A DNA stretch of 26,294 nucleotides, taken from positions 1-26,294 of the IMG/VR virus record IMGVR_UViG_2695420728_000009; one strand, 5' to 3'. Shown here in pieces: positions 2,558 to 20,940 of this stretch. The notes beneath the pieces were generated by a model that worked only from the letters and a program-made list of their open reading frames with translations, searched no databases and was not told the DNA's origin. A program made the translations under genes and the position numbers. The first letter of the stretch is position 1, and each line of letters begins with the position of its first letter. This DNA comes from a virus. Taxonomy: Duplodnaviria; Heunggongvirae; Uroviricota; Caudoviricetes.

Positions 2558-3348
2558 TTACGCCAGTTGTACGGACACGAACGCATCAGGGTCAGCCAGC
2601 AGCATCAGCGGTGCTGACTGAATCATGGTGAACTCACGCGCCGGATCGCCGGTGGTCACCCAGTTTTTCGGGTAGCGGGCAGAGGCGTTAATACCTTCGC
2701 GCTGTGCGTCCGCATCCTGAATGCAGCCATAGGTGCGCAGACCGCGTGCCTGAGAGTTCCCCAGCACCATCGTGTTGTCCGGAAGGAAGTTCTTTTTGAC
2801 GTCGTTTTCCACGTACTGTCCGGAATACACGACGATCGCCGTATCGCCATACATCCCCTTATAGGACACCGCTTCGCCCAGGTCTTTTACCGCTGTCTCC
2901 AGCTCGGAATTAGAGCCGCGACGGGTATCCAGCTTCTCCTTGACGGCTTTGAAGGAACGGAACAGCGCCCAGCCTTTCGGATCAAACACGATGATATTCA
3001 CCACTCCGCTGGCGTTCAGCGCATAGGCTTCGATATCGTCGGTCGGGTCATACGTGGACTTGTCACGCTTGCTCCACTCCGTACCACCGGACTGTGTGAT
3101 GTTGTTCGCCGCACTGCGGCCCATATCCACCTCAACCGGATCGAAGGCTTCACCGGTCATGGTGTATTTGCCCTTAAGCACAGCAGAAACTGCCTGCATC
3201 TCTTCGACCTGAGCAATGGCCAGCTCTTCGTCTCGCATGTTCTGCATGATGATGCGACGGCGGCGGTAAGCCGGGTCCGCCAGATTCTGCGGATCTTCAT
3301 CCGGCAGGCGACGCAGGGTCATCTGCGGATTCACCTCATGCTTCGGCT
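2558..3348 (-). pseudogene. E: 3' fragment of major capsid gene E (codon ~83 to native stop), separated from its 5' part by the inserted element
   Basis: Translation (V)NPQMTLRRLPDEDPQNLADPAYRRRR...FVSVQLA matches lambda gpE residues ~83-341. In-frame upstream codons give P-K-H-E-V and then a TAG at 3347..3349 where E should continue. The ORF caller's start is a GTG inside E. Confidence 0.9.
3339..3348. repeat. Left copy of the 10-bp direct repeat TGCTTCGGCT (attL-type core) at the element/E junction
   Basis: Exact 10-mer at 3339..3348 and 14528..14537, each precisely where E homology breaks; its reverse complement lies within the E codons K-P-K-H. Confidence 0.75.
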
Positions 3349-3424
3349 ACATGAGTCAAATATGAAAGGATGTGAATGATTTGATTACGTTTTAGCTATA
3401 GAATTGAAATGGAAAATCCTTGAA

Positions 3425-3445
3425 TGCAATACAACGTGCAATACA
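3425..3445 (+). promoter_or_regulatory. Tandem pair of TGCAATACA motifs (12-bp period) near the left end; candidate integrase arm-type sites
   Basis: TGCAATACA at 3425..3433 and 3437..3445. The same tandem pair in the same orientation occurs at 14380..14399 near the other end, between the int start and the right junction. Confidence 0.35.
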
Positions 3446-3482
3446 TGGATGAAAACCATCACTCATTTAACAAGAGGAATCT

Positions 3483-4388
3483 ATGCGCTCACCCAACAGA
3501 ATGCATGAACGCTCAACATTTTATAAGTATATGTCGTTGAATACCGCGAAGATTGTTCTTGATTCATGCAGCCTTAGATGGAGTTCTCCGGTCCTATTTA
3601 ATGACCCTTTTGATGTTCCAAGAGAAGTTATGCCTGGTATTAACGAAATTAATATTGGCAAAGCTTTAGCCCGCAAGTTAATAGCGGAGTTGATTACCCC
3701 CAGAGAAGACATACAAAATTTAAACCCTAGAATTAGAACAATGCTAAGTGATTTCCAAAAGTCATTTCCTTTAGGCATACCCGCAGGATTAATTGAAAGA
3801 TTTCAAGAAATGGTAAACATTCCACCAGTTGGGATTGGCGCTCCTGCGGCAATACAAGAAATGAAAGATGTCTGGCGAGGAATGCTTAATAACAGAAGGA
3901 TTTTGTGTTTATCTGAGAGCCCTATAATCACTCCTATGTGGAATCACTATGCCGATAAATATAAAGGTATAGTTATCGAATTGGATTGTGTAGACTTTCT
4001 GGATAGCGCTTGGTTAATAGCCAAACCTATGAAATACACAGATGAAATGCCTCTAACTCACACTGCTGAAGGGATGGCCGAGTTGCTTTTCATGCCAGAC
4101 AATAAGTCAATTGAATATATCAATAATGAGATAATATTCATAAAAACAGAAGAATGGGCATATGAAAGAGAGTGGAGAATTTCAACCTACGCTAGGCCAA
4201 ATAGCACTGGTCAATATAGCGACTTAAAATTTCACCCTTTTGAGTTAAAATCTGTAATACTTGGTCCTCTTTTTGATGCCAGCGAGTTCGATGAAGTCGC
4301 ATCACTAGTTAAAATGTATCCAAGAGCGAAATTATTTAAAAGTTCATTTGGGAACGACAGAAAAATATCCATAGTACCACTACCTTAA
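3483..4388 (+). CDS. DUF2971-like protein (function unknown), AT-rich cargo gene
   Basis: 301-aa ORF with N-terminal FYKY...LFNDPFD and C-terminal EREWR motifs that I recall as DUF2971 hallmarks. Markedly AT-rich relative to neighbours; convergent with the packaging module. Confidence 0.55.
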   Translation: MRSPNRMHERSTFYKYMSLNTAKIVLDSCSLRWSSPVLFNDPFDVPREVMPGINEINIGKALARKLIAELITPREDIQNLNPRIRTMLSDFQKSFPLGIPAGLIERFQEMVNIPPVGIGAPAAIQEMKDVWRGMLNNRRILCLSESPIITPMWNHYADKYKGIVIELDCVDFLDSAWLIAKPMKYTDEMPLTHTAEGMAELLFMPDNKSIEYINNEIIFIKTEEWAYEREWRISTYARPNSTGQYSDLKFHPFELKSVILGPLFDASEFDEVASLVKMYPRAKLFKSSFGNDRKISIVPLP

Positions 4389-4419
4389 AAGGTCAAATGC
4401 TTTTGACAAATAAAATCTA

Positions 4420-4445
4420 TCGCCAGTTTTACTGGCGACTTTTAA
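4420..4445. terminator. Hairpin between convergent genes (DUF2971-like and Nu1-like); likely bidirectional terminator
   Basis: TCGCCAGT-TTT-ACTGGCGA perfect 8-bp stem at 4420..4438 followed by CTTTTAA, with an A/T run on the other side. Confidence 0.5.
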
Positions 4446-4494
4446 GCAACAAAGAACCACCTAAGCACTCTTCCTACCTATGGTTTCATTTGTT

Positions 4495-5046
4495 TTAACT
4501 TCGCTGATTATCCTTGATATACCTTTCAGCCATATCTGGAATGTTATCTGAGATCTGGTAAGCTCGAATAAATGCTTTACTGACCTCCATCTTAATGAAG
4601 TCCTGATACCGTTTTTCCATGCCAGGAAACTGTCGACAGATCGCAAGTGGAAGACTATCAATGATTGCTCCAACTTCCCCAGTTAATTTCGACAAGGCAT
4701 AAGTCGCAAATGCAGTGTCAATTACCTCACCTGTTTCGCTGGCATTCTTCAGTTCCTGTGCGTCGGCCTGCGCACGCGTAAGTCGATGGCGTTCGTACTC
4801 AATAGTCCCTGGCTGGAGATCTGTCTCGCTGGCCTGCCGCAGTTCTTCAACTTCCCGGCGCAGCTTTTCGTTCTCAATTTCAGCATCCCTTTCGGCATAC
4901 CATCTTATAACGGCGGCAGAGTCATAAAGCACCTCATTACCCTTGCCACCGCCTCGCAGAACGGGCATTCCCTGTTCCTGCCAGTTCTGAATGGTACGGA
5001 TACTCGCACCGAAAATGTCAGCCAGCTGCTTTTTGTTGACTTCCAT
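4495..5046 (-). CDS. Satellite small terminase subunit, Nu1-like: N-terminal ~100 aa near-identical to helper Nu1, C-terminal domain diverged
   Basis: 183-aa translation MEVNKKQLADIFGASIRTIQNWQEQGMPVLRGGG... differs from the helper Nu1 (20171..20716) at 2 of the first ~100 residues, then diverges (NASETGEVIDTAF... versus NARDSAEVVETAF...). No large terminase gene follows. Confidence 0.85.
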   Translation of the reverse strand: MEVNKKQLADIFGASIRTIQNWQEQGMPVLRGGGKGNEVLYDSAAVIRWYAERDAEIENEKLRREVEELRQASETDLQPGTIEYERHRLTRAQADAQELKNASETGEVIDTAFATYALSKLTGEVGAIIDSLPLAICRQFPGMEKRYQDFIKMEVSKAFIRAYQISDNIPDMAERYIKDNQRS

Positions 5047-5270
5047 TGTTCATTCCACGGACAAAAACAGAGAAAGGAAACGACAGAGGCCAAAAAGCTC
5101 GCTTTCAGCACCTGTCGTTTCCTTTCTTTTCAGGGGGTATTTTAAATAAAAACATTAAGTTACGACGAAGAAGAACGGAAACGCCTTAAACCGGAAAATT
5201 TTCATAAATAGCGAAAATCCGCGCGCCTGACGCCCCGTAGCCTGTCAGATCGCCGGAAAGGACCCGCCAG
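5047..5270 (-). other. cos-like packaging site of the satellite: cosB copy with variant cosN
   Basis: 5047..5220 is identical to helper 20717..20890 apart from a single base in the R3 element. R-type TerS sites seen at 5071..5086, 5114..5129 and ~5192..5203. The cosN-equivalent 12-mer (5224..5235, CGCCTGACGCCC) differs from the helper's AGGTCGCCGCCC at 5 of 12 positions. Confidence 0.7.
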
Positions 5271-5291
5271 CCAGAGCGGGCCCTAATTTCA

Positions 5292-5675
5292 TCAACCAAT
5301 CAGCTTATAGCGACCATCCCGTGCATTGCGGCGTACACGCTCAATCTTGAGGCATAGCGCCGCATCTGGCTTTTTTGGGACAGGTACGCGGCAATATTCA
5401 GAAGCGCGAGGAATATTATTTATCCAGTCGATCACTTCACTTAAATACCAGGCCTTACGCCCTTCCGTAACCTGCACACGCTCCGGGAACTCTCCACTAG
5501 CCTCAAGGTTTAGCAGTGTACGCCGACTCAGGGTTGTAATTTCCATCACCTGATTCATATCAACAAGGCGCTCGCTTAAACACATTTTGTCAGCGATAGC
5601 TTTTAATTCCTCTACAGCTGGATTCGGGTACATCATTTCGGCAATTGGCTTAAGGTCATTGTAATCATTTTGCAT
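5292..5675 (-). CDS. AlpA/Xis-family HTH protein with N- and C-terminal extensions
   Basis: 127-aa ORF; core MNQVMEITTLSRRTLLNLEASGEFPERVQVTEGRKAWYLSEVIDWI matches the AlpA (MerR-like winged HTH) pattern. Ends 2 bp from the cos region. Confidence 0.55.
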   Translation of the reverse strand: MQNDYNDLKPIAEMMYPNPAVEELKAIADKMCLSERLVDMNQVMEITTLSRRTLLNLEASGEFPERVQVTEGRKAWYLSEVIDWINNIPRASEYCRVPVPKKPDAALCLKIERVRRNARDGRYKLIG

Positions 5676-5686
5676 TGTATCCCCCT

Positions 5687-6028
5687 TTACACACGAGCCA
5701 GCGGCTGAACAGAAATACCTGAGCCAACAAACGCTGCAATCTTTACTGACAGTTCTTTTACAGACTCAGGCCAGTTCAGAGCATCAACATTTAAGACACC
5801 TGTCTTATAGACCTGAGCCTGTGTTTTTTTCGCGGTGTCGATTTGTACAGCGGAAACATAAACCGCTTTACCTACGCTCGAACCATCCCATACCACCAGT
5901 GCACCTGTTGCATCTTCCTGCATCAGTGGCGTAAATGCAGGAATTACCCCTTTATTAGCTGAAAATATCCCCAGCGTAGTCACCAGTGCTTCAGTGCCAG
6001 CCATGAGTTCAGTGTAATGAGTAGCCAT
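5687..6028 (-). CDS. Head decoration protein, lambda gpD-like (diverged)
   Basis: 113-aa ORF; PLMQEDATGALVVWDGSS...YKTGVLNVDALNWPE...AAFVGSGISV aligns with lambda gp[19 protein letters not shown]...[15 protein letters not shown]...[10 protein letters not shown]. Confidence 0.75.
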   Translation of the reverse strand: MATHYTELMAGTEALVTTLGIFSANKGVIPAFTPLMQEDATGALVVWDGSSVGKAVYVSAVQIDTAKKTQAQVYKTGVLNVDALNWPESVKELSVKIAAFVGSGISVQPLARV

Positions 6029-6037
6029 TGCTCCCCC

Positions 6038-7084
6038 TTAGCCAATGCGAACGGTAACAAAACGATTGATGCGGGCCGGTATTGGCTGTGGTGCTGAATG
6101 TGTCTGCACATATTCAATAGCCGGATCACCAGGCACAATATAGTTTTTCGGTGCAAGTTCGGCTTTAGTCAGCCCCATTCGGATTAGCTCCGGATCCTGA
6201 ATACCGCCATAGGCGACAATCCCCTGAAGAGCCGTATTGCCAAGCACCATCAAATCAGGATCAAGGAAATGTTTTTCAGTTCCGTCCTCGTCGGTATAAC
6301 GCCCGCTGTAAACAACAATCGCAACATCGCCCATATATCCTTTAAAACTCACCGAATCACCAAGGTCTTTAAGGGCCGTTTCCAGTTCGGAATTAGAACC
6401 ACGACGGGTATCCAGAGCCTCTTTTATCGCTCTGAATGAACGGTATTTCTTCCATACATTACCGCCCATAATGATGATATTAGTGACGCCCTCACTAAAT
6501 TCTGCGTAGCTCTCAATATCATCATTTGGATCAAAAGTTTCTTTATCCTTACCTGACCACTCAGTACCGCCAGACTGAGTGATGATATTTTGTGGTTTAA
6601 TATTCCAGTCCAGCTCATAACGTTCAATACCATCGCCCTCAATGATATTTTTCCCCGTTGTGATTGCCTGAACGGCAAGCCATTCAATACGTGCACGAAT
6701 AGCTTTAGCTTGATTTACAATCGCCTGTTTAACTTTAATATTACGCGCCCCAAAAGCATTGTATTGCTCAGGTGATACACCAGCAGGGCGCACAGCTAAC
6801 TTATTTGGATCAATGCTGCTTTTCGGCTTCATATAGCCTGGACGAATTGTTTTTGATTCGTACCCTTCGTCACGTGAAACTTTACTACCCACCATAGGAG
6901 AACAAAACGCTGCAATTGGGATATTTGGATCGTCGATTGTATCAAGAATAATATCGCGCGATCCAAACATTACCGAGCGAGTAAAAAACAAACTGGTAAA
7001 CAACGCATTTAGTTGTTTTTGTACATCTACAGCATTAACCACCTGTACAAGCTGGGTAGGCGAATATAAATCAACCATACGCAT
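6038..7084 (-). CDS. Major capsid protein, lambda gpE-like (diverged; roughly half identical by eye in the C-terminal region)
   Basis: ORF 6038..7291 aligns with lambda gpE over most of its length (e.g. ITQSGGTEWSGKDKETFDPNDDIESYA... versus ITQSGGTEWSKRDKSTYDPTDDIEAYA...; TRRGSNSELETA in both). Start set at ATG 7082..7084 (MRMVDLY, matching lambda MSMYTT). Starts at 7078 or 7099 are also possible; the longer N-terminal extension has no homology. Confidence 0.85.
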   Translation of the reverse strand: MRMVDLYSPTQLVQVVNAVDVQKQLNALFTSLFFTRSVMFGSRDIILDTIDDPNIPIAAFCSPMVGSKVSRDEGYESKTIRPGYMKPKSSIDPNKLAVRPAGVSPEQYNAFGARNIKVKQAIVNQAKAIRARIEWLAVQAITTGKNIIEGDGIERYELDWNIKPQNIITQSGGTEWSGKDKETFDPNDDIESYAEFSEGVTNIIIMGGNVWKKYRSFRAIKEALDTRRGSNSELETALKDLGDSVSFKGYMGDVAIVVYSGRYTDEDGTEKHFLDPDLMVLGNTALQGIVAYGGIQDPELIRMGLTKAELAPKNYIVPGDPAIEYVQTHSAPQPIPARINRFVTVRIG

Positions 7085-7252
7085 CCTCTTTGCATTCATT
7101 AAAAATAATTGTGGATATATGCTATCACCGATATTTGTCATGCGAACACATGCAACCGAGTGCAATGTTGTATAAAGTTTTGGGGTGACAACTTCAGTGC
7201 GGACAATTAGTGTTAATATCTTCACTCCCTTTGGTCGGGATTTATGTAGCAT

Positions 7253-7283
7253 GCCGGAAAATTTATTTTTTCCGGCTTTTTTT
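7253..7283 (+). terminator. Strong hairpin followed by a T-tract, oriented antisense to the surrounding minus-strand operon
   Basis: GCCGGAAAA-TTTATT-TTTTCCGGC (9-bp stem) followed by TTTTTTT at 7277..7283. No plus-strand gene lies upstream, so its role is unclear. Confidence 0.4.
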
Positions 7284-7294
7284 ATTGGCAATAT

Positions 7295-7744
7295 TTAAAA
7301 CGGGATATCATCTCCCCATTGCTCATTATCTCCCTCTGGTGGCTGGCTTCCTTGCTGATCTGCCTGTTGTTTTGCTCTGTTCAGTGCGTCAGTAGCCTGC
7401 CCCTGTTGGCCTTTTTTGCCGCCCGGTCGCACCGATCGCGCACTGATTACGCTGTCTGCGATAACCTGCCAGCCCTGCCGCGTTTCGCCGTTCTGTCCAG
7501 TCCACTGGCTCATCTGCATGTTACCCGCCACGCTCAGGAGTTCGCCTTTGTGATGCTTTGCCAGCGCGTCGGCTTGTCTGCCAAACGCCAGGACAGATAA
7601 CCACAACGTCGCCAGACCGTCATCCGACTGACTGCAGGGCAGTGATACCGCCATACGCGCCAGCGTCATGGGGGTGCCCTTGCTGGTCTGTTTTGTCTGC
7701 GGGTCGTCCACCAACCGCCCGTAAACTGATATTTGCGCCGTCAT
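7295..7744 (-). CDS. ssb: Single-stranded DNA-binding protein (SSB)
   Basis: 149-aa ORF with OB-fold-like N-terminus, Gly/Gln-rich linker and the characteristic acidic C-terminal tail ...DDIPF. Confidence 0.85.
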   Translation of the reverse strand: MTAQISVYGRLVDDPQTKQTSKGTPMTLARMAVSLPCSQSDDGLATLWLSVLAFGRQADALAKHHKGELLSVAGNMQMSQWTGQNGETRQGWQVIADSVISARSVRPGGKKGQQGQATDALNRAKQQADQQGSQPPEGDNEQWGDDIPF

Positions 7745-7998
7745 GCTGCCTGCTCTCCGGACTTAATATTGATTGTTGTCACTTCCTCCGCTTCAGCAAT
7801 CTCCCGTTCGGTCAGCGTGGCAAAGTTTGCAGCCGCCGTTGTCATGAATGCGCTTATCAGTTCGGGATGTGCTTTCGCGTATCCTTCCCCGGCGTTGCGG
7901 TCTATTGCCTTAATCGCCACCCTTAGCCAGTGTTCAGCCATATCAAGGGCGCGGTAATGTGGCTTTATATGTTTGTTCAGTTTTCCTGATGTGTGCAT
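7741..7998 (-). CDS. Hypothetical protein (85 aa), translationally coupled to ssb
   Basis: ORF overlaps the ssb start by 4 nt in the same operon; no family recognised. Confidence 0.45.
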   Translation of the reverse strand: MHTSGKLNKHIKPHYRALDMAEHWLRVAIKAIDRNAGEGYAKAHPELISAFMTTAAANFATLTEREIAEAEEVTTINIKSGEQAA

Positions 7999-8043
7999 TT
8001 TTATTTTTACCCCCTCGTTTAAAAAGTTTTTTGTGCACCACCA

Positions 8044-8274
8044 CCTTGTCTACCTTGTCTACCTGATTAGTTATCAGGCCAGTAATGGCGCGGGTTTCAG
8101 GGAGGTAGACAGCCCCAAATAGCTGTCTACCTCATCTCTACCCGTCTCCTTACCTGTCTACAAAAATGGGTAGATAAGGTAGATAACAGGTAGACAGTGA
8201 AAAATAGTTATCTACCTGCATTAATACATTGAAATAAAAGTATTTTCTTTCAGTCAGGTAGACAAGGTAGATAA
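8044..8274. repeat. Iteron array, GGTAGA(C/T)A in both orientations (10 or more copies); putative satellite origin of replication
   Basis: Copies of TGTCTACC / GGTAGACA / GGTAGATA at ~8046, 8055, 8103, 8123, 8153, 8169, 8178, 8190, 8208, 8257 and 8266, in a non-coding stretch immediately 3' of the primase-helicase gene. Confidence 0.7.
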
Positions 8275-8287
8275 CCATTGCCATTTT

Positions 8288-10039
8288 TTATAAAAACGCA
8301 TCGCAATCATCAGTAGTCGTTGCGTTGGTCTGCGTGACTCCCTTAACTTTTCGCGTAATATATTCATATCCGTAAACTTTCGCCGCTGACCTCATAGCCT
8401 TTCCGAACTCATTCACGCTCAAACATTTCCCCTTTCCTGTGTATGCCATGAAGGCCATATAGACACGGTAAAGGCTGTTTCTGGTCGTGTACTTCACGGT
8501 GTCACCACCACCGCCCATCATTAGCCCACGAGCTTCCTCCAGAAACTCCAGCGCCGCGCAAAGCTCAACAACCGGATCCGTTTGCTGCTTTATTGCCAGA
8601 GCTTCATCACCGTCACGCTGTTCCAGTAATAAAGCCCGTGCCTTTTCAGGGGCAGCAAAATTAGCCAGCAAGCGGCGGATAATTACGGGGATTTCTGCCG
8701 CTATCTTTTCCGGTAATTCCTTGTCTTTTTCGTCCTCCCTTACAATGTTGTCGAACCGGAAAATCACCCGACGGCGTGACACACCTCCGGCCCGTTCGGT
8801 AAAGATCATCGGGTCGTTATTGGTTGCCAGTACCACCGCCCTTATTATCGTCGTGAATCGCTTCTCATATTTCGGGTTAATTTCAACGGGATCGCCTCCC
8901 GTGATTTTCTTGATGCCCGTGCCTTCCCCCGTATATTTCGGCTGATCGGCAAGGACGATAAGACGACTCCCGACAACCTGCGCGCGCCCTCCTGCATCAT
9001 CGAGTGATGTCATCTCCGCGCTTACGGTGTTCTGTTTGCCAGCAAGCAGGGTGGCAATATGGGTAAATGTACTCTTACCGCTTCCCCCGTCTCCGGTGGC
9101 CTCAATGAACATCTGCCAGTCGTAGCGGTTCGCCATAATCATGTATAACGCGGCACATATACGCATCATCTTACGCGGGTCTTTTCTTGCAGCATGTTCA
9201 AGCCATTTATGGAAATTTGGCGCATTATCGCGGATGTTTTCCCCTGCTACTGGTGGCGTGTACTCAATGCCATTGTGCGTGGTGCTCCAGTGCTCCGGCG
9301 AGTGCGGAGAAAATTCCCCCGTTTTCAGGTTAAGCACACCATTAGTGAACGGTAGCAAATCACCGGACGGCTCCCCCATGGGGTCGGCAATAACTTTTAA
9401 CGCTTCCACGGCGTTATTGATTACACGTTTGCTGAACGTGGCCCTGTGCTCTGAATAGATCGCCACCATTTCGCGGCTCAGCTCCATTGTGCTGACCGGA
9501 CACCATACCCCGCCGCGCCATACGTGGACGATTTCACTTTCTGCATGAACACACACACCATCAAAGCGATCGGCAAGTAGTTGTGCACGTTCACTGTCTG
9601 CCATCTGTGAAAGTTGCGCCTTTTGCTTCGTCGGAAGATTAAGCACCAGACTTTCCCCACGCTCGCATTCCTCTTTGAGTCGCGGCAACTGCTCGGATAA
9701 ATCCACTGGGCTGGTGTCAGTAATCCCCGCGTATTCGTGTACGGTCTTCACTCCAGCCACAGCCAGTAACGTAACAATCTGCGTCATGCTGTGCTCTGTG
9801 ATATGTCCTGCGCGGTAAACACGCACACACTGACGATCTTCATCAATGATCCGGTAATCGGTGATATTTTTCAGTTGCTCATCAGCCAGCACGACAGGCG
9901 GCACATCGTCGGCGGCAATATGTTTACCCGCCCATTCCCGCCACTCTTTCGCATGGCTCCACGCATCACTACCTGCAAAGATGATTACCTCTGTCAGTCT
10001 GTCGCGTGGCTGTTTTTTTAAGTTCGGTGCCAGTTTCAT
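8288..10039 (-). CDS. Replication initiation protein: primase-helicase (P4 alpha-like C-terminal / D5_N-SF3 helicase type)
   Basis: 583-aa ORF with Walker A EATGDGGSGKST and the overall pattern of phage/plasmid primase P4-family C-terminal domains; N-terminal region resembles a toprim-like domain. Confidence 0.85.
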   Translation of the reverse strand: MKLAPNLKKQPRDRLTEVIIFAGSDAWSHAKEWREWAGKHIAADDVPPVVLADEQLKNITDYRIIDEDRQCVRVYRAGHITEHSMTQIVTLLAVAGVKTVHEYAGITDTSPVDLSEQLPRLKEECERGESLVLNLPTKQKAQLSQMADSERAQLLADRFDGVCVHAESEIVHVWRGGVWCPVSTMELSREMVAIYSEHRATFSKRVINNAVEALKVIADPMGEPSGDLLPFTNGVLNLKTGEFSPHSPEHWSTTHNGIEYTPPVAGENIRDNAPNFHKWLEHAARKDPRKMMRICAALYMIMANRYDWQMFIEATGDGGSGKSTFTHIATLLAGKQNTVSAEMTSLDDAGGRAQVVGSRLIVLADQPKYTGEGTGIKKITGGDPVEINPKYEKRFTTIIRAVVLATNNDPMIFTERAGGVSRRRVIFRFDNIVREDEKDKELPEKIAAEIPVIIRRLLANFAAPEKARALLLEQRDGDEALAIKQQTDPVVELCAALEFLEEARGLMMGGGGDTVKYTTRNSLYRVYMAFMAYTGKGKCLSVNEFGKAMRSAAKVYGYEYITRKVKGVTQTNATTTDDCDAFL

Positions 10040-10335
10040 TTTTTGCCCCTGAATGCGTTAATCATGCTTTTCATTTTCTGGATGTTTCCCCGCGCTTTTT
10101 CCCTGCTGATGGGCTTACTGCGGGGTGCGGCATATACCAGGGAAAAATCACGCCGGAACTGATAAACAGGCATCACGCAGTCATAGCTATACCCCTCACG
10201 GCGGTAAGTGATGCGCCGTTCTGCCACGCCTTTAATCGTTACCGTGCCGCCGTATTTATCGCGGTAAATATCGCCGTTCATAAATTCAGGCCGAGCGGGG
10301 CCGCTGGCAATAAAGCCAGAATTTTTCATTTCCAT
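10036..10335 (-). CDS. Hypothetical protein (99 aa), coupled to the primase-helicase gene
   Basis: 4-nt overlap with the primase start, same strand; no family recognised. Confidence 0.5.
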   Translation of the reverse strand: MEMKNSGFIASGPARPEFMNGDIYRDKYGGTVTIKGVAERRITYRREGYSYDCVMPVYQFRRDFSLVYAAPRSKPISREKARGNIQKMKSMINAFRGKK

Positions 10336-10352
10336 ATTATTTATTCCTCGAC

Positions 10353-10574
10353 TTAACTCGACTTATTTGATAGCAGGGCACTATTTATTGCGTCATTGAG
10401 TTTTTCTGCTGATTCATCAATAAGTGACAACAGGCCATAAGCAATATTTGCATCTTCATTGTCATTTATGCAATCAAGCCACATATTTAATATTGCTTTT
10501 GCTGAATTATTTAAAGTTAATGAACTTTCTGCACATGCTAACAATTTAAAAAAGACTTCCCGTTCTGTATTCAT
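10353..10574 (-). CDS. Hypothetical small protein (73 aa), AT-rich
   Basis: Compact in-operon ORF; no recognisable motif. Confidence 0.4.
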   Translation of the reverse strand: MNTEREVFFKLLACAESSLTLNNSAKAILNMWLDCINDNEDANIAYGLLSLIDESAEKLNDAINSALLSNKSS

Positions 10575-10766
10575 TTAATCCCCCACCAGCTTACTTTCTT
10601 CCTCAATCAGGAAACTAGCGACACTTCCCGAAAGGCGCGCCAGTAGGCTCGCCAGCGCGGATATATCAGCATCTGTAATTTTGTTCGGGTATACCTCAAG
10701 AAGGCGGCAAATAATTTCTGTCTGGTGCGCACGTTCAGCGGCTTCGTGTAATGTGATTTCCTGCAT
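10575..10766 (-). CDS. Hypothetical small protein (63 aa)
   Basis: Abuts the neighbouring ORFs with no gap; no recognisable motif. Confidence 0.4.
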   Translation of the reverse strand: MQEITLHEAAERAHQTEIICRLLEVYPNKITDADISALASLLARLSGSVASFLIEEESKLVGD

Positions 10767-10951
10767 TAATGCACCTCTTTTAATTCATACACTGCTGAAA
10801 TAATGACTTGTGATAAGCCATATTCTGATGATTCGCTTCTCACCGCAGCAATAGCCGTCTGAACATTAACAGCCTTCACGTTCTGAGTGATACCAATTGT
10901 GTGGCCCAGTGGGTTAACAGCTCGGGCAAATACACGGAAGGTTTTAAGCAC
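10766..10951 (-). CDS. Hypothetical small protein (61 aa)
   Basis: Tightly packed in the same operon; no recognisable motif. Confidence 0.35.
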   Translation of the reverse strand: MLKTFRVFARAVNPLGHTIGITQNVKAVNVQTAIAAVRSESSEYGLSQVIISAVYELKEVH

Positions 10952-11207
10952 GGCACACCTCCTGACGAATACGGGCGGCGAATATCATCACGTAGCCAGT
11001 TGGGGATTGCTGGCGGGCTTCCTGTTCGCTGGCGGCCTCGATGTGTATTACGCGTGGTTGTGCGGTGCTCAGGGCGATAAAACGCCAGATGTATTTATTC
11101 AGGTTGTGCGAATCCCGCCCTTGCGGGTGTGTGGTATGATTTCTCATAGCTACCTCGATACTGTTGCTATCGTTGGTGGTTAGACGCCCTGTATGTGTTG
11201 CGAGCAC
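10944..11207 (-). CDS. Hypothetical protein (87 aa or shorter), first gene of the leftward operon
   Basis: ORF begins just downstream of the divergent promoter region 11208..11286; an internal start (MRNHTTHP...) is possible. Confidence 0.35.
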   Translation of the reverse strand: MLATHTGRLTTNDSNSIEVAMRNHTTHPQGRDSHNLNKYIWRFIALSTAQPRVIHIEAASEQEARQQSPTGYVMIFAARIRQEVCRA

Positions 11208-11243
11208 TGCAGGGCGTTGTTATATAGCAATAAAACATGATAA

Positions 11244-11286
11244 GGTGTGTACCTATCAAGAATCATACTAAGCAATAGGTACACAC
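11244..11286. promoter_or_regulatory. Perfect 12-bp inverted repeat (GTGTGTACCTAT ... ATAGGTACACAC) in the divergent promoter region; candidate operator
   Basis: Arms at 11245..11256 and 11275..11286 separated by 18 bp; the right arm ends at the ATG of the RHH gene and overlaps its ribosome-binding site. Confidence 0.45.
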
Positions 11287-11481
11287 ATGTCAACTATCAT
11301 TCAACGTGATAAACAACCGAAAGGTGCAGGTAAAGCACCAGCATTCCAAGTCCGTATTAACCCAGAATTAAAAGAACAAATGGTTAATGTCGCTGCCAAA
11401 GAAGGGATGAGCTTAGGTAACTGGCTAAAAGAACTGGCTCGTGCCGAACTAATAAAACAAGGAATAACACCTAAAGGCTGA
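11287..11481 (+). CDS. Small ribbon-helix-helix-like DNA-binding protein (YlcI/YnfO-like pattern)
   Basis: 64-aa ORF; FQVRINPELKEQMVNVAAKEGMSLGNWLKELARAEL fits a beta-strand-helix-helix (Arc/MetJ-like) pattern and resembles the helper moron 21105..21338 (IRFPNQMIEQINIALDQKGYGNFSAWVIEACRRRL). Confidence 0.55.
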   Translation: MSTIIQRDKQPKGAGKAPAFQVRINPELKEQMVNVAAKEGMSLGNWLKELARAELIKQGITPKG

Positions 11482-11504
11482 TAATTTGCATAAAGGATTC
11501 TTCT

Positions 11505-12854
11505 ATGACAACAAGTCACAAAATGCTAGAAATCAGTAAAGAACAATTTGATGTATTTTTCTATGGTCGTACACCATACGTAAAAACCTTTTCGGAGGAA
11601 ATCTGTTGGTTCAAATTTATAAAGGATGATGTCACGATCTTAGCAACAATTGTTTTTTGTAAAATAGATAATGATTACAACGCTATATTTCTAGGTAGGG
11701 ATTTAGATAAAAAATTTAGAGCGATTAAAGTAATTGTATCCCGTGAATCTAAAGATGATTTAATTACTGATATGGAAAAAGCCATACCAGAGCTATTATC
11801 ACTACACAAGAACGGTTGTTTTATACAGGGTGACGAATCAGAGTCGGCATTTTCAATATTCCTAGCCAAAGTTCCAGAACATAAAAAAAACGTTTATCTA
11901 AGAATGCTACTTGAGGAACCCAAACACTATCCTGCATTTATTGTTATGCAAGAGTTAGCTTATTGGTGTAAAGATCCTGATGGAATATTCATCAGAGATT
12001 TCCAGAGTGCTTCATTTAACTCTCGCTTATTCGAACTTTATCTAAACGCAGTTTTCTACGAAATGGATTTCGTAATATGCAGAGATTATGCTCAACCTGA
12101 TTATATTATCTCAAAAAATGGCATTGATATTGCTGTAGAAGCTGCCACAGTTGCAGAACAAGAGGAACCTACCGAGAAATTGATACTTGATCATGAGGCA
12201 GTAGAAGATCTTCAGAGATATGTAAAAGAACAAATGCCATTCAAATTTGCCCGCACTCTATTAAAGAAAGTTAGGCATAAACCTGAACCCTTAAAATTAT
12301 GCTATTGGGAACTAGATCATACAAAAGGAAAGCCTTTCATTATTGCTTTACACGATTACTCACGCAGATTTTCGATGAGTATATCAATGCCAGCACTACA
12401 AAGCTATCTGTATGGTGTAGATATGGATTCTGGAAGTAAAATTGAACAACATTTATTTGAAAATCGAAGTATACAATCTAATTTTTTCGGCTCTAATAAA
12501 AATGAGAATGTCTCAGCCATATTACTTGCGACACATGCCACCATCCCAAAATTTGATAGGATGGGAGTAGTGGCAGGGATTGAACAAAAAAATGTCAAAT
12601 CCATCGTTAGAGGTATTAAAACTGATGAAGGCTGTACCCCAATGCCTTTTACTGCTCTTGTCAATGCACCTTCATATCAAGAACCATGGTGTACAGCAAT
12701 ATACATGTTTCATAATCCGAAGGCATTAAATCCTATACGCCCTGAATTATTCCCAAGAGTTATTCATATTTTTGAAGAAGATGGAGAAATAGTTCAATAC
12801 TTACCACCTAATTATATAATCTCATCAACTACGCACGTATTTGAATTTAAGTGA
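11505..12854 (+). CDS. Large unknown protein (449 aa), AT-rich cargo; candidate defence or toxin effector
   Basis: Long clean ORF 23 bp downstream of the RHH gene; very low GC compared with flanking satellite genes. No family recognised by eye; a weak PD-(D/E)xK-like stretch (QPDYIISKNGIDIAVEAA) is noted without confidence. Confidence 0.7.
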   Translation: MTTSHKMLEISKEQFDVFFYGRTPYVKTFSEEICWFKFIKDDVTILATIVFCKIDNDYNAIFLGRDLDKKFRAIKVIVSRESKDDLITDMEKAIPELLSLHKNGCFIQGDESESAFSIFLAKVPEHKKNVYLRMLLEEPKHYPAFIVMQELAYWCKDPDGIFIRDFQSASFNSRLFELYLNAVFYEMDFVICRDYAQPDYIISKNGIDIAVEAATVAEQEEPTEKLILDHEAVEDLQRYVKEQMPFKFARTLLKKVRHKPEPLKLCYWELDHTKGKPFIIALHDYSRRFSMSISMPALQSYLYGVDMDSGSKIEQHLFENRSIQSNFFGSNKNENVSAILLATHATIPKFDRMGVVAGIEQKNVKSIVRGIKTDEGCTPMPFTALVNAPSYQEPWCTAIYMFHNPKALNPIRPELFPRVIHIFEEDGEIVQYLPPNYIISSTTHVFEFK

Positions 12855-12859
12855 TTTCA

Positions 12860-12886
12860 AATCCTATGGGTTTACCCCATAGGATT
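12860..12886. terminator. 11-bp perfect-stem hairpin between convergent genes (449-aa cargo and alpA)
   Basis: AATCCTATGGG-TTTA-CCCATAGGATT at 12860..12886, 6 bp after the cargo stop codon. Confidence 0.5.
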
Positions 12887-12905
12887 ACATCCACTGTCTA
12901 AATTC

Positions 12906-13127
12906 TTACCACTCTCCCCTAATCCATGCCTGCACTTCTGAAAGACGATATGCAACAGCAGTGGAACCAATCTTGATCCGCTTAGGAAATTTTCCTTCCT
13001 TCTCCAGCTTCCAGCGTGTGCTGTTCGCAAGAGTGGTTAGCTCCCGACATTCTTTCTCACGGATCATACGATCGATATTAGGAATGTACTCCAGACCCTT
13101 TTTATCGACAATTGCCATTTTTTTCAT
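12906..13127 (-). CDS. alpA: AlpA-family transcriptional regulator / excisionase-like protein
   Basis: 73-aa ORF; RELTTLANSTRWKLEKEGKFPKRIKIGSTAVAYRLSEVQAWI matches the AlpA HTH signature; immediately downstream of int on the same strand. Confidence 0.85.
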   Translation of the reverse strand: MKKMAIVDKKGLEYIPNIDRMIREKECRELTTLANSTRWKLEKEGKFPKRIKIGSTAVAYRLSEVQAWIRGEW

Positions 13128-13128
13128 G

Positions 13129-14364
13129 TTAACCAGCCTTTTGTTTGAGGATTGTCACTTTTGAATCAGCACCTGCGATGCTATTGAGATATGTAGTCCA
13201 GAGTTCCAGAGCATCCAGTTTTTTAGCCATAAACTTACTCCGGTTGTAAACACCTGCCACGCCAGGTAGCGCATGGCCTAACAGTTGTTCTACTACATAA
13301 AATTCAACACCGAGATCACTTAGATGAGTAGATAGCGTTCTTCTAAGGTCGTGTAGTGACCATTGTTTTTCATGGCCCAAACGTTTACCGATTTTCCCCC
13401 CAATCTTGCTTACGCTTTCTCTAATTCGCAGACTTCCCAGCACATAACCAGTATGTTTTGTCTCTTCGTGAACATCCGTTACCCACTGTCGTAGAATTTC
13501 AGGTACTGGTCTGACGATTTCAACACCAGTTTTTGAGTGATCTTTTGGTACAGTCCAAACCCAACTTTCGAGATCCCATTCGCTCCATTCTGATAATCGG
13601 GCTTCACTCATTCGACATCCAAATACTGTACAAAGCACAAACATTTTTCGCGTGTATTCAGACATTAGTTTTAAATCAGGCTCGACAAAAATTGCCTTCC
13701 AGAGCTGGCCGAGTTCGGCTTCATCCAGAACCCGATCCCGCTTACCTGCAATCTGCCCCACATCACTCATGCGCAAATCCTTTAAAGCATCACACGTCGC
13801 GTACTGGCGTACCCGACAAAAACGAAGAGCTAATTTAGTGTCAGAAAAAACATACGCCGCCATAACTGGTGCATTACGTTTAATTCGGTCAAAACAGTCC
13901 AGCCATTCATATAGGTGAGTGTCATTTACGGGCAAATGACCGATATAGGGAAAGATATGCTTTCGAAATCTGCCAAGCGTTACAGCATGAGTTTTACGAC
14001 GCACCTTACAGTAATTTTCATACCAGTAATTTAGTGCATCCTCCACTGTGACCGGCTTTAAGCGTTCTTCAGCCTGAATCTTAATCTGGATACGCGGATC
14101 ACGTTTGTCAGCCAACCAACCACGGCACTCGTCGCGCTTTTCCCTTGCCTGTTTGAGTGACATATCAGGATATTTACCCAACGTTAGCCAGACCGGAGCA
14201 GCCCGGCCACCTGCTAACCTGTAGAAGAAAACAAAGCTCACAGCCCCTTTAGTACTCACACGAATAGAAAGCCCCTTTCCATCAGCAATGGTGATCTGCT
14301 TTTCTCTGGGTTTCCCCAGATATCCTTTAAGCGCTTTGTCGCTCAGTTTGTTCTCGCCAGCCAT
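13129..14364 (-). CDS. int: Tyrosine site-specific integrase (P4-type)
   Basis: N-terminus MAGENKLSDKALKGYLGKPREKQITIADGKGLSIRVSTKG... typical of the P4-integrase N-terminal domain; C-terminal catalytic region with HDLRRT and LLGH motifs and a Tyr-containing tail. Start set at ATG 14362..14364; the 17 upstream codons are extension. Confidence 0.9.
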   Translation of the reverse strand: MAGENKLSDKALKGYLGKPREKQITIADGKGLSIRVSTKGAVSFVFFYRLAGGRAAPVWLTLGKYPDMSLKQAREKRDECRGWLADKRDPRIQIKIQAEERLKPVTVEDALNYWYENYCKVRRKTHAVTLGRFRKHIFPYIGHLPVNDTHLYEWLDCFDRIKRNAPVMAAYVFSDTKLALRFCRVRQYATCDALKDLRMSDVGQIAGKRDRVLDEAELGQLWKAIFVEPDLKLMSEYTRKMFVLCTVFGCRMSEARLSEWSEWDLESWVWTVPKDHSKTGVEIVRPVPEILRQWVTDVHEETKHTGYVLGSLRIRESVSKIGGKIGKRLGHEKQWSLHDLRRTLSTHLSDLGVEFYVVEQLLGHALPGVAGVYNRSKFMAKKLDALELWTTYLNSIAGADSKVTILKQKAG

Positions 14365-14379
14365 TTTTAGCCCCAAAAA

Positions 14380-14399
14380 GCAATACAAGCTGCAATACA
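14380..14399 (+). promoter_or_regulatory. Second tandem pair of GCAATACA motifs (12-bp period); candidate integrase arm-type sites / int promoter region
   Basis: GCAATACA at 14380..14387 and TGCAATACA at 14391..14399; same motif, spacing and orientation as the pair at 3425..3445. Confidence 0.35.
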
Positions 14400-14526
14400 G
14401 AGATGATTGCAACACACAGATAACGAGGAAAATTCAGTGAAAGCACCAGATAAACTTATTCTTTATTATCAAAAGATTAAGTGTAAAAACCAGCAACTAC
14501 ACGAAAGCCTCAGAAAGCCATGCTAA

Positions 14527-14772
14527 GTGCTTCGGCTTGACATATCCCGGTGTAAATTCAGAGGTGGAGCCGCCACGGGAGCGGATAACCTCACCGGAAA
14601 CAATCGGCGAAACGTACAGCGCCATGTTTACCAGTCCCGGAATTTGTGAGAGATAGACTTTCTCCGTGGTGAAGGGATAGCTCTCACGGAAAAAGAGACG
14701 CAGAAACAGCGGATCAAACTTAAATTTCTTCTCATTTGCCGCCAGCAGCTGGGCGGTTGTGTACATCGACAT
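14527..14772 (-). pseudogene. E: 5' fragment of major capsid gene E (codons 1-82), truncated by the element
   Basis: From ATG 14770..14772: MSMYTTAQLLAANEKKFKFDPLFLRLFFRESYPFTTEKVYLSQIPGLVNMALYVSPIVSGEVIRSRGGSTSEFTPGYVKPKH matches the lambda gpE N-terminus, then reads into element sequence (LAWLSEAFV, stop at 14497). Confidence 0.9.
14528..14537. repeat. Right copy of the 10-bp direct repeat TGCTTCGGCT (attR-type core)
   Basis: Exact match to 3339..3348; E homology ends at 14527. Confidence 0.75.
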
Positions 14773-20196: not shown

Positions 20197-20716
20197 TCAG
20201 CAACCCCGGTATCAGTTCATCCAGCGCGGCTGCTTTGTTCATGGCTTTGATGATATCCCGTTTCAGGAAATCAACATGTCGGTTTTCCAGTTCCGGAAAA
20301 CGCCGCTGCACCGACAGGGGGATCCCGTCGAGAATACTGGCAATTTCACCTGCGATCCGCGACAACACGAAAGTACAGAATGCGGTTTCCACCACTTCAG
20401 CGGAGTCTCTGGCATTCTTCAGTTCCTGTGCGTCGGCCTGCGCACGCGTAAGTCGATGGCGTTCGTACTCAATAGTCCCTGGCTGGAGATCTGCCTCGCT
20501 GGCCTGCCGCAGTTCTTCAACCTCCCGGCGCAGCTTTTCGTTCTCAATTTCAGCATCCCTTTCGGCATACCATTTTATGACGGCGGCAGAGTCATAAAGC
20601 ACCTCATTACCCTTGCCACCGCCTCGCAGAACGGGCATTCCCTGTTCCTGCCAGTTCTGAATGGTACGGATACTCGCACCGAAAATGTCAGCCAGCTGCT
20701 TTTTGTTGACTTCCAT
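20171..20716 (-). CDS. Nu1: Terminase small subunit Nu1 (helper copy)
   Basis: 181-aa translation matches lambda Nu1 throughout (MEVNKKQLADIFGASIRTIQNWQEQGMPVLRGGGKGNEVLYDSAAVIKWYAERD...SEYIEQSG). Confidence 0.95.
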
Positions 20717-20940
20717 TGTTCATTCCACGGACAAAAACAGAGAAAGGAAACGACAGAGGCCAAAAAGCTCGCTTTCAGCACCTGTCGTTTCCTTTCTTTT
20801 CAGGGGGTATTTTAAATAAAAACATTAAGTTACGACGAAGAAGAACGGAAACACCTTAAACCGGAAAATTTTCATAAATAGCGAAAACCCGCGAGGTCGC
20901 CGCCCCGTAACCTGTCGGATCGCCGGAAAGGACCCGCAAA
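20717..20940 (-). other. cos: cos site of the helper prophage (cosB R-sites plus cosN cohesive-end sequence at 20894..20905)
   Basis: Reverse complement of 20894..20905 is GGGCGGCGACCT, the lambda 12-nt cohesive end, flanked by ...CGCG and CGTAACCTGTCGGATCGCC... as at the lambda genome ends. R-type sites (CTGTCGTTTCCTTTCT, AGAAAGGAAACGACAG) lie between cosN and the Nu1 start. Confidence 0.88.

What the first reader, a model, noticed from the sequence alone, without database searches (positions are those of the whole stretch)
8044..8274. Dense iteron array immediately 3' of the primase-helicase gene: probable satellite replication origin
At least ten copies of the 8-bp motif GGTAGA(C/T)A in both orientations within ~230 bp of non-coding DNA, next to the primase-helicase gene. 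This matches the organisation of P4/PICI origins (iterons adjacent to the initiator gene). The array is not CRISPR-like: units are 8-9 bp with irregular spacing.
Basis: partly seen in the sequence, partly recalled or inferred. Interest (0 to 1): 0.5.

Follow-up and report, generated by a model that had tools for sequence, protein, structure and literature searches.

The report
Replication origin of a phage satellite
The repeat cluster is real and is almost certainly the replication origin of a small phage-parasitic island (a PICI) sitting inside a lambda-like prophage, but this type of origin has already been described and tested in a close relative, so it is an ordinary member of a known kind.

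Summary
Observation confirmed. GGTAGAYA occurs 10 times exactly in the window, against 0.8 expected, and every copy lies in 8047-8273. Two further one-mismatch copies bring the array to 12 sites. It fills the 289-bp gap between the stop of a 583-aa initiator gene (8288-10039, minus strand) and the next gene.

Interpretation supported. The initiator's last ~95 residues match the solved origin-binding domain of phage P4 alpha protein (1KA8). The array aligns site for site with the region 3' of pri in the E. coli PICI EcCICFT073. That region was shown to support Pri-dependent plasmid replication (Fillol-Salom 2018). In 46 of 79 relatives from other bacteria, a dense 8-mer array sits within 400 bp 3' of the homologous gene. 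The motif changes together with the initiator's C-terminal domain. The rival reading as a cos site is excluded, because a copy of the helper prophage's cos/Nu1 region lies elsewhere, at 4709-5267.

Corrections:
- The "primase-helicase" has no detectable primase domain.
- The conserved core is GGTAGA.
- The layout is a quasi-palindrome, not irregular.

The element is a helper-embedded PICI inserted in the prophage's major capsid gene, a configuration published in 2023. Novelty is low: it is a new member of a known kind.

The parts
8288..10039 (-). Initiator gene (pri/rep, 583 aa). Residues 1-150 form an N-terminal domain with no family match. D5_N covers 152-281 and the SF3 helicase P-loop (DUF5906) covers 315-416. 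The C-terminal winged-helix origin-binding domain covers 487-578.
   Evidence: Pfam hits. PDB 7OLA at E 4e-15 and 1KA8 (P4 alpha origin-binding domain) at E 2e-7. No Zn-ribbon or Toprim domain, unlike P4 alpha. 80% identical to EcCICFT073 Pri.
8257..8273 (+). Gene-proximal tandem iteron pair, GGTAGACA and GGTAGATA, with a 9-bp period.
   Evidence: Conserved in all 9 E. coli/Shigella variants. Aligns with the tandem pair of the 11capE array and of the P4 crr units.
8217..8256 (.). AT-rich spacer (about 22% GC), the candidate DNA-unwinding element. It contains CTTTTATTTCA, a motif shared with the P4 crr and 11capE spacers.
   Evidence: Composition. Alignment A4. Fillol-Salom 2018 describes two iteron sets flanking an AT-rich region as the likely melting site.
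8169..8216 (.). Central-right iterons: 8169, 8178 and 8189 on the + strand, and 8209 on the - strand.
8104..8162 (.). Central-left iterons: 8104 (+), 8124 (-) and 8135 (-, GGTAGAGA). A one-mismatch copy at 8155 (-, TGTAGACA) is not conserved in relatives. Sites 8103-8132 form an 11-12 bp perfect inverted repeat.
8064..8103 (.). Second 48-bp gap, of normal GC content. It contains the block CCAGTAATGGCGCGG-TTTCAG (about 8080-8100), which is nearly invariant in 9 variants. Its function is unknown.
8047..8063 (-). Gene-distal tandem iteron pair, two copies of GGTAGACA with a 9-bp period, 48 bp upstream of the next gene's start.
7741..7998 (-). 85-aa ORF with no family match, conserved immediately downstream of the origin in all relatives.
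7295..7744 (-). Single-strand DNA-binding protein of the replication module.
   Evidence: Pfam SSB, E 2e-15.
12906..14415 (-). Integrase (13129-14415) and AlpA-family regulator (12906-13127) of the island, co-oriented with pri.
4709..5267 (.). Copy of the resident prophage's Nu1 5' end plus the upstream cos region, 95.7% identical to 20379-20937. This is the island's candidate packaging site and is separate from the iteron array.
   Evidence: Nu1 Pfam hits.
3339..3348 (.). att core TGCTTCGGCT. The second copy is at 14528-14537. The two copies bound an island of about 11.19 kb inside the prophage's lambda-E-type major capsid gene.
   Evidence: Split capsid fragments. Same 10-bp identity block configuration as 11capE (PMC10111431).

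Best explanation
The array is the replication origin of an ~11-kb phage-inducible chromosomal island (PICI) of the EcCICFT073 / helper-embedded type.

Inferred mechanism: after induction, the island's 583-aa initiator is made and binds the GGTAGA-core iterons through its C-terminal winged-helix domain. That domain is homologous to the origin-binding domain of P4 alpha. Occupying the two inverted half-arrays, each a tandem pair, a ~40-bp spacer and opposed iterons, strains and melts the 22%-GC spacer at 8217-8256. The protein's own SF3 helicase ring then loads there, and the island-encoded SSB coats the opened strands.

Because the protein has no recognisable primase domain, priming is probably supplied by the host or helper. 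This step is pure inference.

What is shown: the array exists, it is orthologous to the tested EcCICFT073 ori region, the initiator has a P4-type binding domain, and iteron sequence co-varies with that domain. What is inferred: binding, the melting site, and helicase loading.
For: 1. Enrichment is extreme and confined to this gap.
2. The adjacent protein's residues 487-578 match PDB 1KA8, the P4 alpha origin-binding domain (E 2e-7). Its core matches the SaPI5 primase-helicase 7OLA (E 4e-15).
3. The island is syntenic with EcCICFT073: int, alpA, Icd-like, DUF4222, pri, gap, 85-aa ORF, SSB, capsid, decoration. Pri is 80% identical. The gap aligns with iteron sites conserved and spacers diverged.
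4. Fillol-Salom et al. 2018 state that the Gram-negative PICI ori lies immediately 3' of the initiator, with two iteron sets flanking an AT-rich region. They show that a pri-ori plasmid from EcCICFT073 is maintained, while the delta-pri and delta-ori versions are not or are much less so.
5. In 46 of 79 loci from other Enterobacterales, Aeromonas and others, a single 8-mer occurs at least 4 times within 400 bp 3' of the homologous gene. Only 15 of 1495 control windows reach that count. The motifs differ by lineage: GGTAGAYA, GGTAGAGA, GGTAGGGA, GGTATACA, GGTGCACA, and GGTGAACA, which is P4's type 1 repeat. They track the C-terminal wing sequence.
6. A natural module swap supports the link. The 11capE island of NRG857c uses the same att site, and its N-terminal domain is 64% identical. 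Its binding domain is only 33% identical, and its array has the same layout built from GGTGAACA. EcCICFT073 is only 43% identical in the N-terminal domain but 82% identical in the binding domain, and it keeps GGTAGA.
7. The half-unit (pair, AT spacer with CTTTTAtTTCA, inverted iteron) aligns with each 120-bp unit of P4 crr.
8. All iterons of the island lie in this single cluster.
Against: - No experiment exists on this allele. The support is orthology plus one plasmid-maintenance assay on a relative that is about 76% identical over the array.
- In P4, the only system where this protein family's DNA binding has been dissected, the array directly 3' of alpha is crr, which is required in cis but is not where replication starts. 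Position alone therefore does not prove that initiation occurs here.
- The initiator lacks a primase domain, so the replicon is not self-sufficient in the way P4's is.
- Over the full 8-mer, iteron columns are only modestly more conserved than spacer columns (0.83 vs 0.80, p 0.03). The signal is strong only for the GGTAGA core.
Confidence: 0.86

Rival explanations
1. The array is a crr-like cis-acting element. The initiator binds it and it is needed in cis, for example for looping, helicase delivery or copy control, but DNA synthesis starts elsewhere in the island or in the surrounding prophage.
For: In P4, the array immediately 3' of alpha is annotated as crr, and the true ori lies about 4.7 kb away. 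The half-unit here aligns with the crr units. As a helper-embedded island, it can also be replicated passively from the prophage origin (PMC10111431).
Against: No second iteron cluster exists in this island, in EcCICFT073 or in 11capE, whereas P4 has two. The EcCICFT073 pri-ori segment alone sustained a plasmid. The array contains its own AT-rich block flanked by opposed iterons.
Confidence: 0.08
2. The repeats are operators for a transcription regulator controlling the downstream operon (85-aa ORF, SSB, capsid). The regulator could be the initiator acting as an autoregulator or one of the island's AlpA-family proteins.
For: The array lies directly upstream of the next gene's start at 7998, with the distal pair about 50 bp from the ATG. 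The island encodes two AlpA-family DNA-binding proteins.
Against: No sigma-70-like promoter and no terminator were found in 7700-8600 on either strand, so read-through from pri is plausible. The motif tracks the initiator's C-terminal domain across lineages. Twelve sites in two inverted half-arrays around an AT-rich block is origin architecture, not operator architecture. A dual role is not excluded.
Confidence: 0.04
3. The array is the island's packaging signal: terminase small-subunit binding sites of the cosB or pac type.
For: Satellites must carry a helper-compatible packaging site, and lambda cosB is built from repeated R elements (established knowledge).
Against: The resident prophage's cos region, upstream of Nu1 at about 20717-20937, contains no GGTAGAYA. 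The island carries a 95.7% identical copy of that cos/Nu1 segment at 4709-5267, about 3 kb away from the array.
Confidence: 0.01
4. The array is a chance or degenerate low-complexity repeat with no function.
For: None beyond the short unit length.
Against: 0 of 100 shuffles reach 10 copies. Ten to eleven of the twelve sites are conserved across nine diverged variants. Equivalent arrays with other motifs occur in 46 of 79 distant relatives.
Confidence: 0.01

Closest known systems
Replication origin of the E. coli PICI EcCICFT073 (Fillol-Salom et al. 2018, ISME J, PMC6092414)
   Same: Same position, in the ~289-bp gap directly 3' of pri and upstream of the 85-aa ORF and SSB. Same GGTAGA-core iterons at the same aligned sites. 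Same tandem end pairs and same AT-rich spacer. Pri is 80% identical, with 94% in the helicase and 82% in the binding domain. The island gene order is the same.
   Different: The array region is about 76% identical, with diverged spacers. The Pri N-terminal domain is only 43% identical. There is one extra, non-conserved near-iteron at 8155. The island sits in a prophage capsid gene rather than at EcCICFT073's chromosomal site between roxA and phoQ. It carries a Nu1-like gene with a cos copy, plus different cargo. This allele has not been tested experimentally.
Helper-embedded PICI 11capE of E. coli NRG857c (Mageeney et al. 2023, PMC10111431)
   Same: Same 10-bp att identity block inside a lambda-E-type capsid gene. 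The island is co-oriented with the interrupted gene and has the same gene order. Its array of about 10 iterons 3' of pri has the same pair / AT-spacer / inverted-iteron layout.
   Different: The 11capE iterons are GGTGAACA, the P4 type. Its Pri is 606 aa, with a binding domain only 33% identical to the one here. The two islands therefore have different, probably non-cross-reacting, replicon specificities.
Phage P4 alpha protein with its crr and ori (P4 record NC_001609; PDB 1KA8)
   Same: The initiator shares the D5_N, SF3 helicase and C-terminal origin-binding domains. Iterons are 8 bp, occur in both orientations, and include tandem pairs with a 9-bp period. An array of 10 iterons lies directly 3' of the initiator gene. 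The half-unit and its AT spacer motif align.
   Different: P4's iteron is GGTGAACA, which differs from GGTAGACA at 2 of 8 positions. P4 has two separate clusters, crr plus ori about 4.7 kb apart, and crr is two direct 120-bp repeats. Here there is one cluster made of two inverted halves. P4 alpha has Zn-ribbon and Toprim primase domains that are absent here. The island otherwise lacks the P4 genes sid, delta, psu and epsilon.
SaPI (Gram-positive PICI) origins
   Same: The ori lies immediately 3' of the rep gene, with iteron sets flanking an AT-rich region, as summarised in PMC6092414. The helicase core matches the SaPI5 primase-helicase 7OLA.
   Different: No sequence relation between the iterons was examined here. 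The host clade and the island transcriptional organisation differ.

Membership tests
Gram-negative PICI origin (EcCICFT073 type) | Lies immediately 3' of the replication initiator gene | tested here: met
   The first iteron ends 14 bp from the stop codon at 8288-8290.
Gram-negative PICI origin (EcCICFT073 type) | [quoted passage not shown] | tested here: met
   The pair at 8257-8273 and the iterons at 8169-8216 flank a 40-bp block of 22% GC. Definition taken from PMC6092414, Fig. 2 legend.
Gram-negative PICI origin (EcCICFT073 type) | Sequence orthology to the tested EcCICFT073 pri-ori region | tested here: met
   Alignments A1 and A3: iteron sites are conserved and Pri is 80% identical.
Gram-negative PICI origin (EcCICFT073 type) | Host island has int, alpA and pri in one direction, and a size of 10-20 kb | tested here: met
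   int 13129-14415, alpA 12906-13127 and pri 8288-10039 are all on the minus strand. The island is 11.19 kb between its att cores.
Gram-negative PICI origin (EcCICFT073 type) | Initiator-dependent replication of the cloned region | not testable with these tools
   Shown only for EcCICFT073 (plasmids pJP2027-2029).
Helper-embedded PICI (HE-PICI) | Integrated within, and co-oriented with, a prophage late gene, with a short att identity block | tested here: met
   The 10-bp repeat TGCTTCGGCT lies at 3339 and 14528, inside a split Phage_cap_E gene on the minus strand. This matches the description in PMC10111431.
Phage P4 replicon | Initiator with a C-terminal origin-binding domain of the P4 alpha type | tested here: met
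   1KA8 match at E 2e-7 over residues 487-578.
Phage P4 replicon | Type 1 iteron TGTTCACC / GGTGAACA | tested here: not met
   The iteron here is GGTAGAYA. P4's annotated repeats are GGTGAACA.
Phage P4 replicon | Bipartite cis elements: ori plus a distant crr | tested here: not met
   There is a single cluster in the island, whereas P4 has two.
Phage P4 replicon | Initiator carries a Zn-ribbon and Toprim primase domain | tested here: not met
   Both are present in P4 alpha and in the 804-aa relative P0124, and absent here. Residues 1-150 match no Pfam family. TIGR01613 scores below its cutoff and covers only the helicase part.
Lambda-type cos site | Similarity to the helper's cos region upstream of Nu1 | tested here: not met
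   The array has no similarity to that region. The cos/Nu1 copy is at 4709-5267.
CRISPR array | Direct repeats of 24-48 bp separated by unique spacers of similar length | tested here: not met
   Units are 8-9 bp, occur in both orientations, and have spacings of 9-48 bp.

The most novel reading that the evidence does not exclude
The helicase-plus-binding-domain segment and its iteron array behave as one exchangeable cassette. That cassette recombines independently of the initiator's N-terminal domain and of the island's integration module. This creates orthogonal replicon specificity groups among islands that share the same prophage target (GGTAGA here, GGTGAACA in 11capE). In addition, these 'primases' have lost the primase domain. 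Priming would then depend on host or helper functions, possibly through the nearly invariant non-iteron block at about 8080-8100.
Probability: 0.35. Interest if true: 0.4.

Novelty: new member of a known kind. Interest (0 to 1): 0.2.

Why it matters
The result has modest value.

- **Annotation.** It pins the origin of a widespread island. The identical array occurs in 77 of 5426 complete E. coli genomes, and related arrays occur in 570. This is useful for annotating the island and for engineering PICI-based delivery vectors.
- **Comparative rule.** The survey gives a simple, general rule for this initiator family: look within 400 bp 3' of the gene for an 8-mer array. It also provides a natural set of matched binding-domain and iteron pairs. 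Those pairs could be used to work out the DNA-recognition code of the P4-alpha-type winged-helix domain.
- **Limits.** The finding does not open a new question. The origin type, its position and the helper-embedded configuration are all published.

Tried and rejected
- **cos/pac site.** Rejected. The helper's cos/Nu1 copy lies at 4709-5267 and the array shares nothing with it.
- **Promoter or terminator in the gap.** None was found by consensus scan.
- **Structured RNA.** There are no Rfam hits in the whole window. The strong single-strand DNA folds of the region are just the inverted iterons pairing with each other.
- **Coding potential of the gap.** Only chance ORFs of 33-49 aa were found.
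- **Phage database.** A near-identity search with 7000-10400 found nothing, so the element is not a deposited phage.
- **Second iteron cluster (P4-like ori).** None was found in this island, in EcCICFT073 or in 11capE.
- **Inverted pair GGTACACA at 11246/11278.** It was considered as a remote iteron site. It is one mismatch off and is not conserved in EcCICFT073, so it is more likely an unrelated operator.
- **Iteron versus spacer conservation over the full 8-mer.** The signal was weak (0.83 vs 0.80), because positions 7-8 vary and because several of the nine sequences are close relatives. Only the GGTAGA core carries the signal.
- **Iteron sequences in Fig. 2a of Fillol-Salom 2018.** They are not in the held text or supplements. 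I therefore could not check whether the authors drew exactly these sites.
- **Structure prediction.** Not run, because the 1KA8 sequence match was sufficient.

Full report
**Observation**

The motif GGTAGAYA occurs 10 times exactly in the 26,294-bp window. All 10 copies lie between 8047 and 8273. Dinucleotide-preserving shuffles give a mean of 0.82 and a maximum of 4. Allowing one mismatch adds 8135-8142 (GGTAGAGA) and 8155-8162 (TGTAGACA), for 12 sites, six on each strand. The rest of the window holds only 0.28 such sites per 300 bp.

The array fills the 289-bp gap 7999-8287. This gap lies between the stop of a 583-aa gene on the minus strand (8288-10039) and the start of an 85-aa ORF (7741-7998), which is followed by an SSB gene. 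Only chance ORFs of 33-49 aa overlap the gap. No Rfam family matches anywhere in the window. No sigma-70-like promoter or intrinsic terminator is predicted in 7700-8600.

The spacing is not irregular. Centre-to-centre distances are 9, 48, 20, 11, 20, 14, 9, 11, 20, 48, 9. This means a tandem pair at each end, a 48-bp gap, and then opposed iterons. The gene-proximal 48-bp gap contains a 40-bp block of about 22% GC (8217-8256). That block is among the 1.1% most AT-rich 40-mers of the element.

**The neighbouring gene**

Pfam finds D5_N (152-281), the SF3-helicase P-loop family DUF5906 (315-416), and a sub-threshold Pox_D5 match at the C-terminus. Against solved structures, residues 219-441 match the SaPI5 primase-helicase 7OLA (E 4e-15). 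Residues 487-578 match 1KA8, the origin-binding domain of phage P4 alpha (E 2e-7).

P4 alpha and an 804-aa relative carry a primase Zn-ribbon and a Toprim domain ahead of D5_N. The protein here does not, and its first 150 residues match no family. NCBIfam's "P4-family primase C-terminal" model scores below its cutoff and covers only the helicase part. The gene is therefore an origin-binding SF3 helicase. The label "primase" is annotation transfer.

**The element**

The array plus flanks is at least 95% identical in 77 of 5426 complete E. coli genomes (76 of them at 99% or more). Related arrays are found in 570 genomes, always chromosomal. Annotated context in strain RM14723 shows an island inserted into the major capsid gene of a lambdoid prophage. 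Its gene order is integrase, HTH regulator, Icd-like, DUF4222, "primase", hypothetical, SSB, major capsid, head decoration, HTH.

In the window, the 10-bp repeat TGCTTCGGCT at 3339 and 14528 bounds an ~11.19-kb island. The repeat lies inside codons K-P-K-H of a split lambda-E-type capsid gene.

This is the helper-embedded PICI configuration described by Mageeney et al. 2023 for 11capE of E. coli NRG857c (PMC10111431). [quoted passage not shown]

The island is also syntenic with the model Gram-negative PICI EcCICFT073. Its Pri is 80% identical overall to the protein here.

**Orthology to a tested origin**

The gap aligns with the EcCICFT073 gap 3' of pri and with seven further E. coli/Shigella variants. 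Across 12 sites and 9 sequences, the consensus base of the GGTAGA core is present in 87-91% of cells. Most exceptions come from the non-conserved 8155 site, and from one site lost in three genomes. Positions 7-8 vary.

Fillol-Salom et al. 2018 (PMC6092414) state that Gram-negative PICI origins lie immediately 3' of the initiator gene, with two iteron sets flanking an AT-rich region. They report that a pri-ori plasmid from EcCICFT073 is maintained at the restrictive temperature, whereas the delta-pri and delta-ori derivatives are not or are much less so. Their supplement lists these plasmids and a primer that contains the pri-proximal iteron pair.

**Comparative test beyond E. coli**

I fetched 80 loci encoding relatives from one genome per species. 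In each usable locus I counted the commonest 8-mer in the 400 bp after the stop codon.

- In 46 of 79 usable loci one 8-mer occurs at least 4 times.
- Only 15 of 1495 control 400-bp windows from the same loci reach that count.

The motif differs by lineage. Examples are GGTAGAYA, GGTAGAGA, GGTAGGGA, GGTATACA, GGTGCACA, TGTTCAT-type motifs, and GGTGAACA, which is P4's annotated type 1 repeat. Each motif class goes with a characteristic sequence in the C-terminal wing of the protein, for example TRKVKGVTQTN, TRSINGRAQTN and KRKTKHGIRSN.

The cleanest case is a natural module swap.

| Comparison with the window's Pri | N-terminal domain identity | Helicase identity | Binding-domain identity | Iteron |
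|---|---|---|---|---|
| 11capE (same att site) | 64% | 46% | 33% | GGTGAACA, same layout |
| EcCICFT073 | 43% | 94% | 82% | GGTAGA |

Within E. coli, three variants whose iterons end in GG instead of YA carry NVAEFS instead of NVNDFG at the start of the presumed recognition helix. This is suggestive, but it probably reflects a single evolutionary event.

**Relation to P4**

The P4 record annotates crr directly 3' of alpha. It consists of ten 8-bp type 1 repeats in two direct 120-bp units. A separate ori with six more repeats lies about 4.7 kb away.

The half-unit here is a tandem pair with a 9-10-bp period, a 33-38-bp AT-rich spacer containing CTTTTAtTTCA, and then an inverted iteron. It aligns with both P4 crr units and with the EcCICFT073 and 11capE arrays. 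P4 has two clusters. The window's island, EcCICFT073 and 11capE each have one. The PICI array thus looks like two crr-type units in inverted orientation doing the whole job.

This leaves a minor rival: that the array is a cis-required binding region rather than the start site itself. The autonomous replication of the EcCICFT073 pri-ori fragment argues against that.

**Rivals**

- **Packaging site.** Excluded. The island carries, at 4709-5267, a 95.7% identical copy of the resident prophage's Nu1 5' end and upstream cos region (20379-20937). The array has no similarity to it.
- **Pure operator role.** Unlikely, given the architecture, the absence of a predicted promoter and the co-variation with the initiator. 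A secondary regulatory effect on the downstream operon cannot be excluded.

**Mechanism**

The following steps are inferred. The initiator binds GGTAGA-core iterons through its winged-helix domain on both sides of the AT-rich spacer. The spacer melts, the SF3 helicase self-loads, and the island SSB stabilises the single strands. Priming comes from host or helper functions, since no primase domain is present. As a helper-embedded island, it can also be copied passively with the prophage.

**Verdict**

The feature is a new allele of a published and functionally tested origin type, inside a published class of island. Interest is low.

The added value lies in four points:
- The "primase" label is corrected.
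- The true conserved core and the quasi-palindromic layout are defined.
- The binding domain is shown to be homologous to that of P4 alpha.
- A cross-species catalogue of matched binding-domain and iteron pairs is provided.

Noticed in passing
window 3339-14537: The whole island (~11.19 kb) is inserted in the lambda-E-type major capsid gene of the resident lambdoid prophage, at a 10-bp att core (TGCTTCGGCT). It is co-oriented with the interrupted gene and carries its own E-like capsid gene (6038-7291) and D-like decoration gene (5687-6028). This is the published helper-embedded PICI configuration (PMC10111431).
   Followed up: yes
window 4709-5267 vs 20379-20937: The island holds a 559-bp segment 95.7% identical to the prophage's Nu1 5' end plus the upstream cos region, and a full Nu1-family gene (4495-5046). 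This looks like a recently captured packaging module and is the likely cos site of the island.
   Followed up: partly
window 8288-10039 (residues 1-150): The protein annotated as 'DNA primase family protein' has no Zn-ribbon or Toprim domain, and its first 150 residues match no family. This N-terminal domain recombines independently of the helicase and binding-domain part. It is 64% identical to 11capE but 43% identical to EcCICFT073, the reverse of the pattern seen for the rest of the protein.
   Followed up: partly
window 8080-8100: A non-iteron block, CCAGTAATGGCGCGG-TTTCAG, inside the GC-normal 48-bp gap is nearly invariant across nine diverged E. coli/Shigella variants. A small hairpin forms next to it in both this allele and EcCICFT073, using different sequences. 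Its function is unknown; it could be a host-factor or priming signal.
   Followed up: partly
window 11246-11285: A perfect inverted pair AGGTACACA (each one mismatch from the iteron) lies 31 bp apart in the divergent promoter region between the Icd-like operon and a HicB-like gene. It is not conserved in EcCICFT073 and is probably an operator for another regulator.
   Followed up: partly
window 11505-12854 and 3483-4388: The island's two plus-strand cargo genes match anti-phage defence models: PD-T7-1 (E 1e-153) and the candidate system PDC-S31 (E 3e-31; Pfam DUF2971). Strain RM14723 carries a different gene at the first position, so the cargo slots are variable.
   Followed up: partly
L003 3371-17895: A relative with the EcCICFT073-type Pri (protein P0108, 584 aa) sits between Nu1 and gpW of another lambdoid prophage, that is, in the position of the terminase large-subunit gene. 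In L002 and L004 the same protein is encoded by an island at a chromosomal site between pntB and the mdtJI-like genes.
   Followed up: no
window 8217-8256; L094 15085-15117; L087 4331-4365: The AT-rich spacers of this array, of 11capE and of both P4 crr units share the core C(T/A)TTTA(T/A)(T/A)TCA. In the PICI arrays (this window and 11capE) the spacer also reads as a one-mismatch IHF-like consensus (tTTCAAtgtaTTA here).
   Followed up: no
L090, L091, L092 (E. coli OZ040963, O157 Z1615, Q5): In these variants the iterons end in GG (GGTAGAGG) instead of YA, and the binding domain has NVAEFS instead of NVNDFG. This is a candidate contact between the start of the recognition helix and iteron positions 7-8.
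   Followed up: partly
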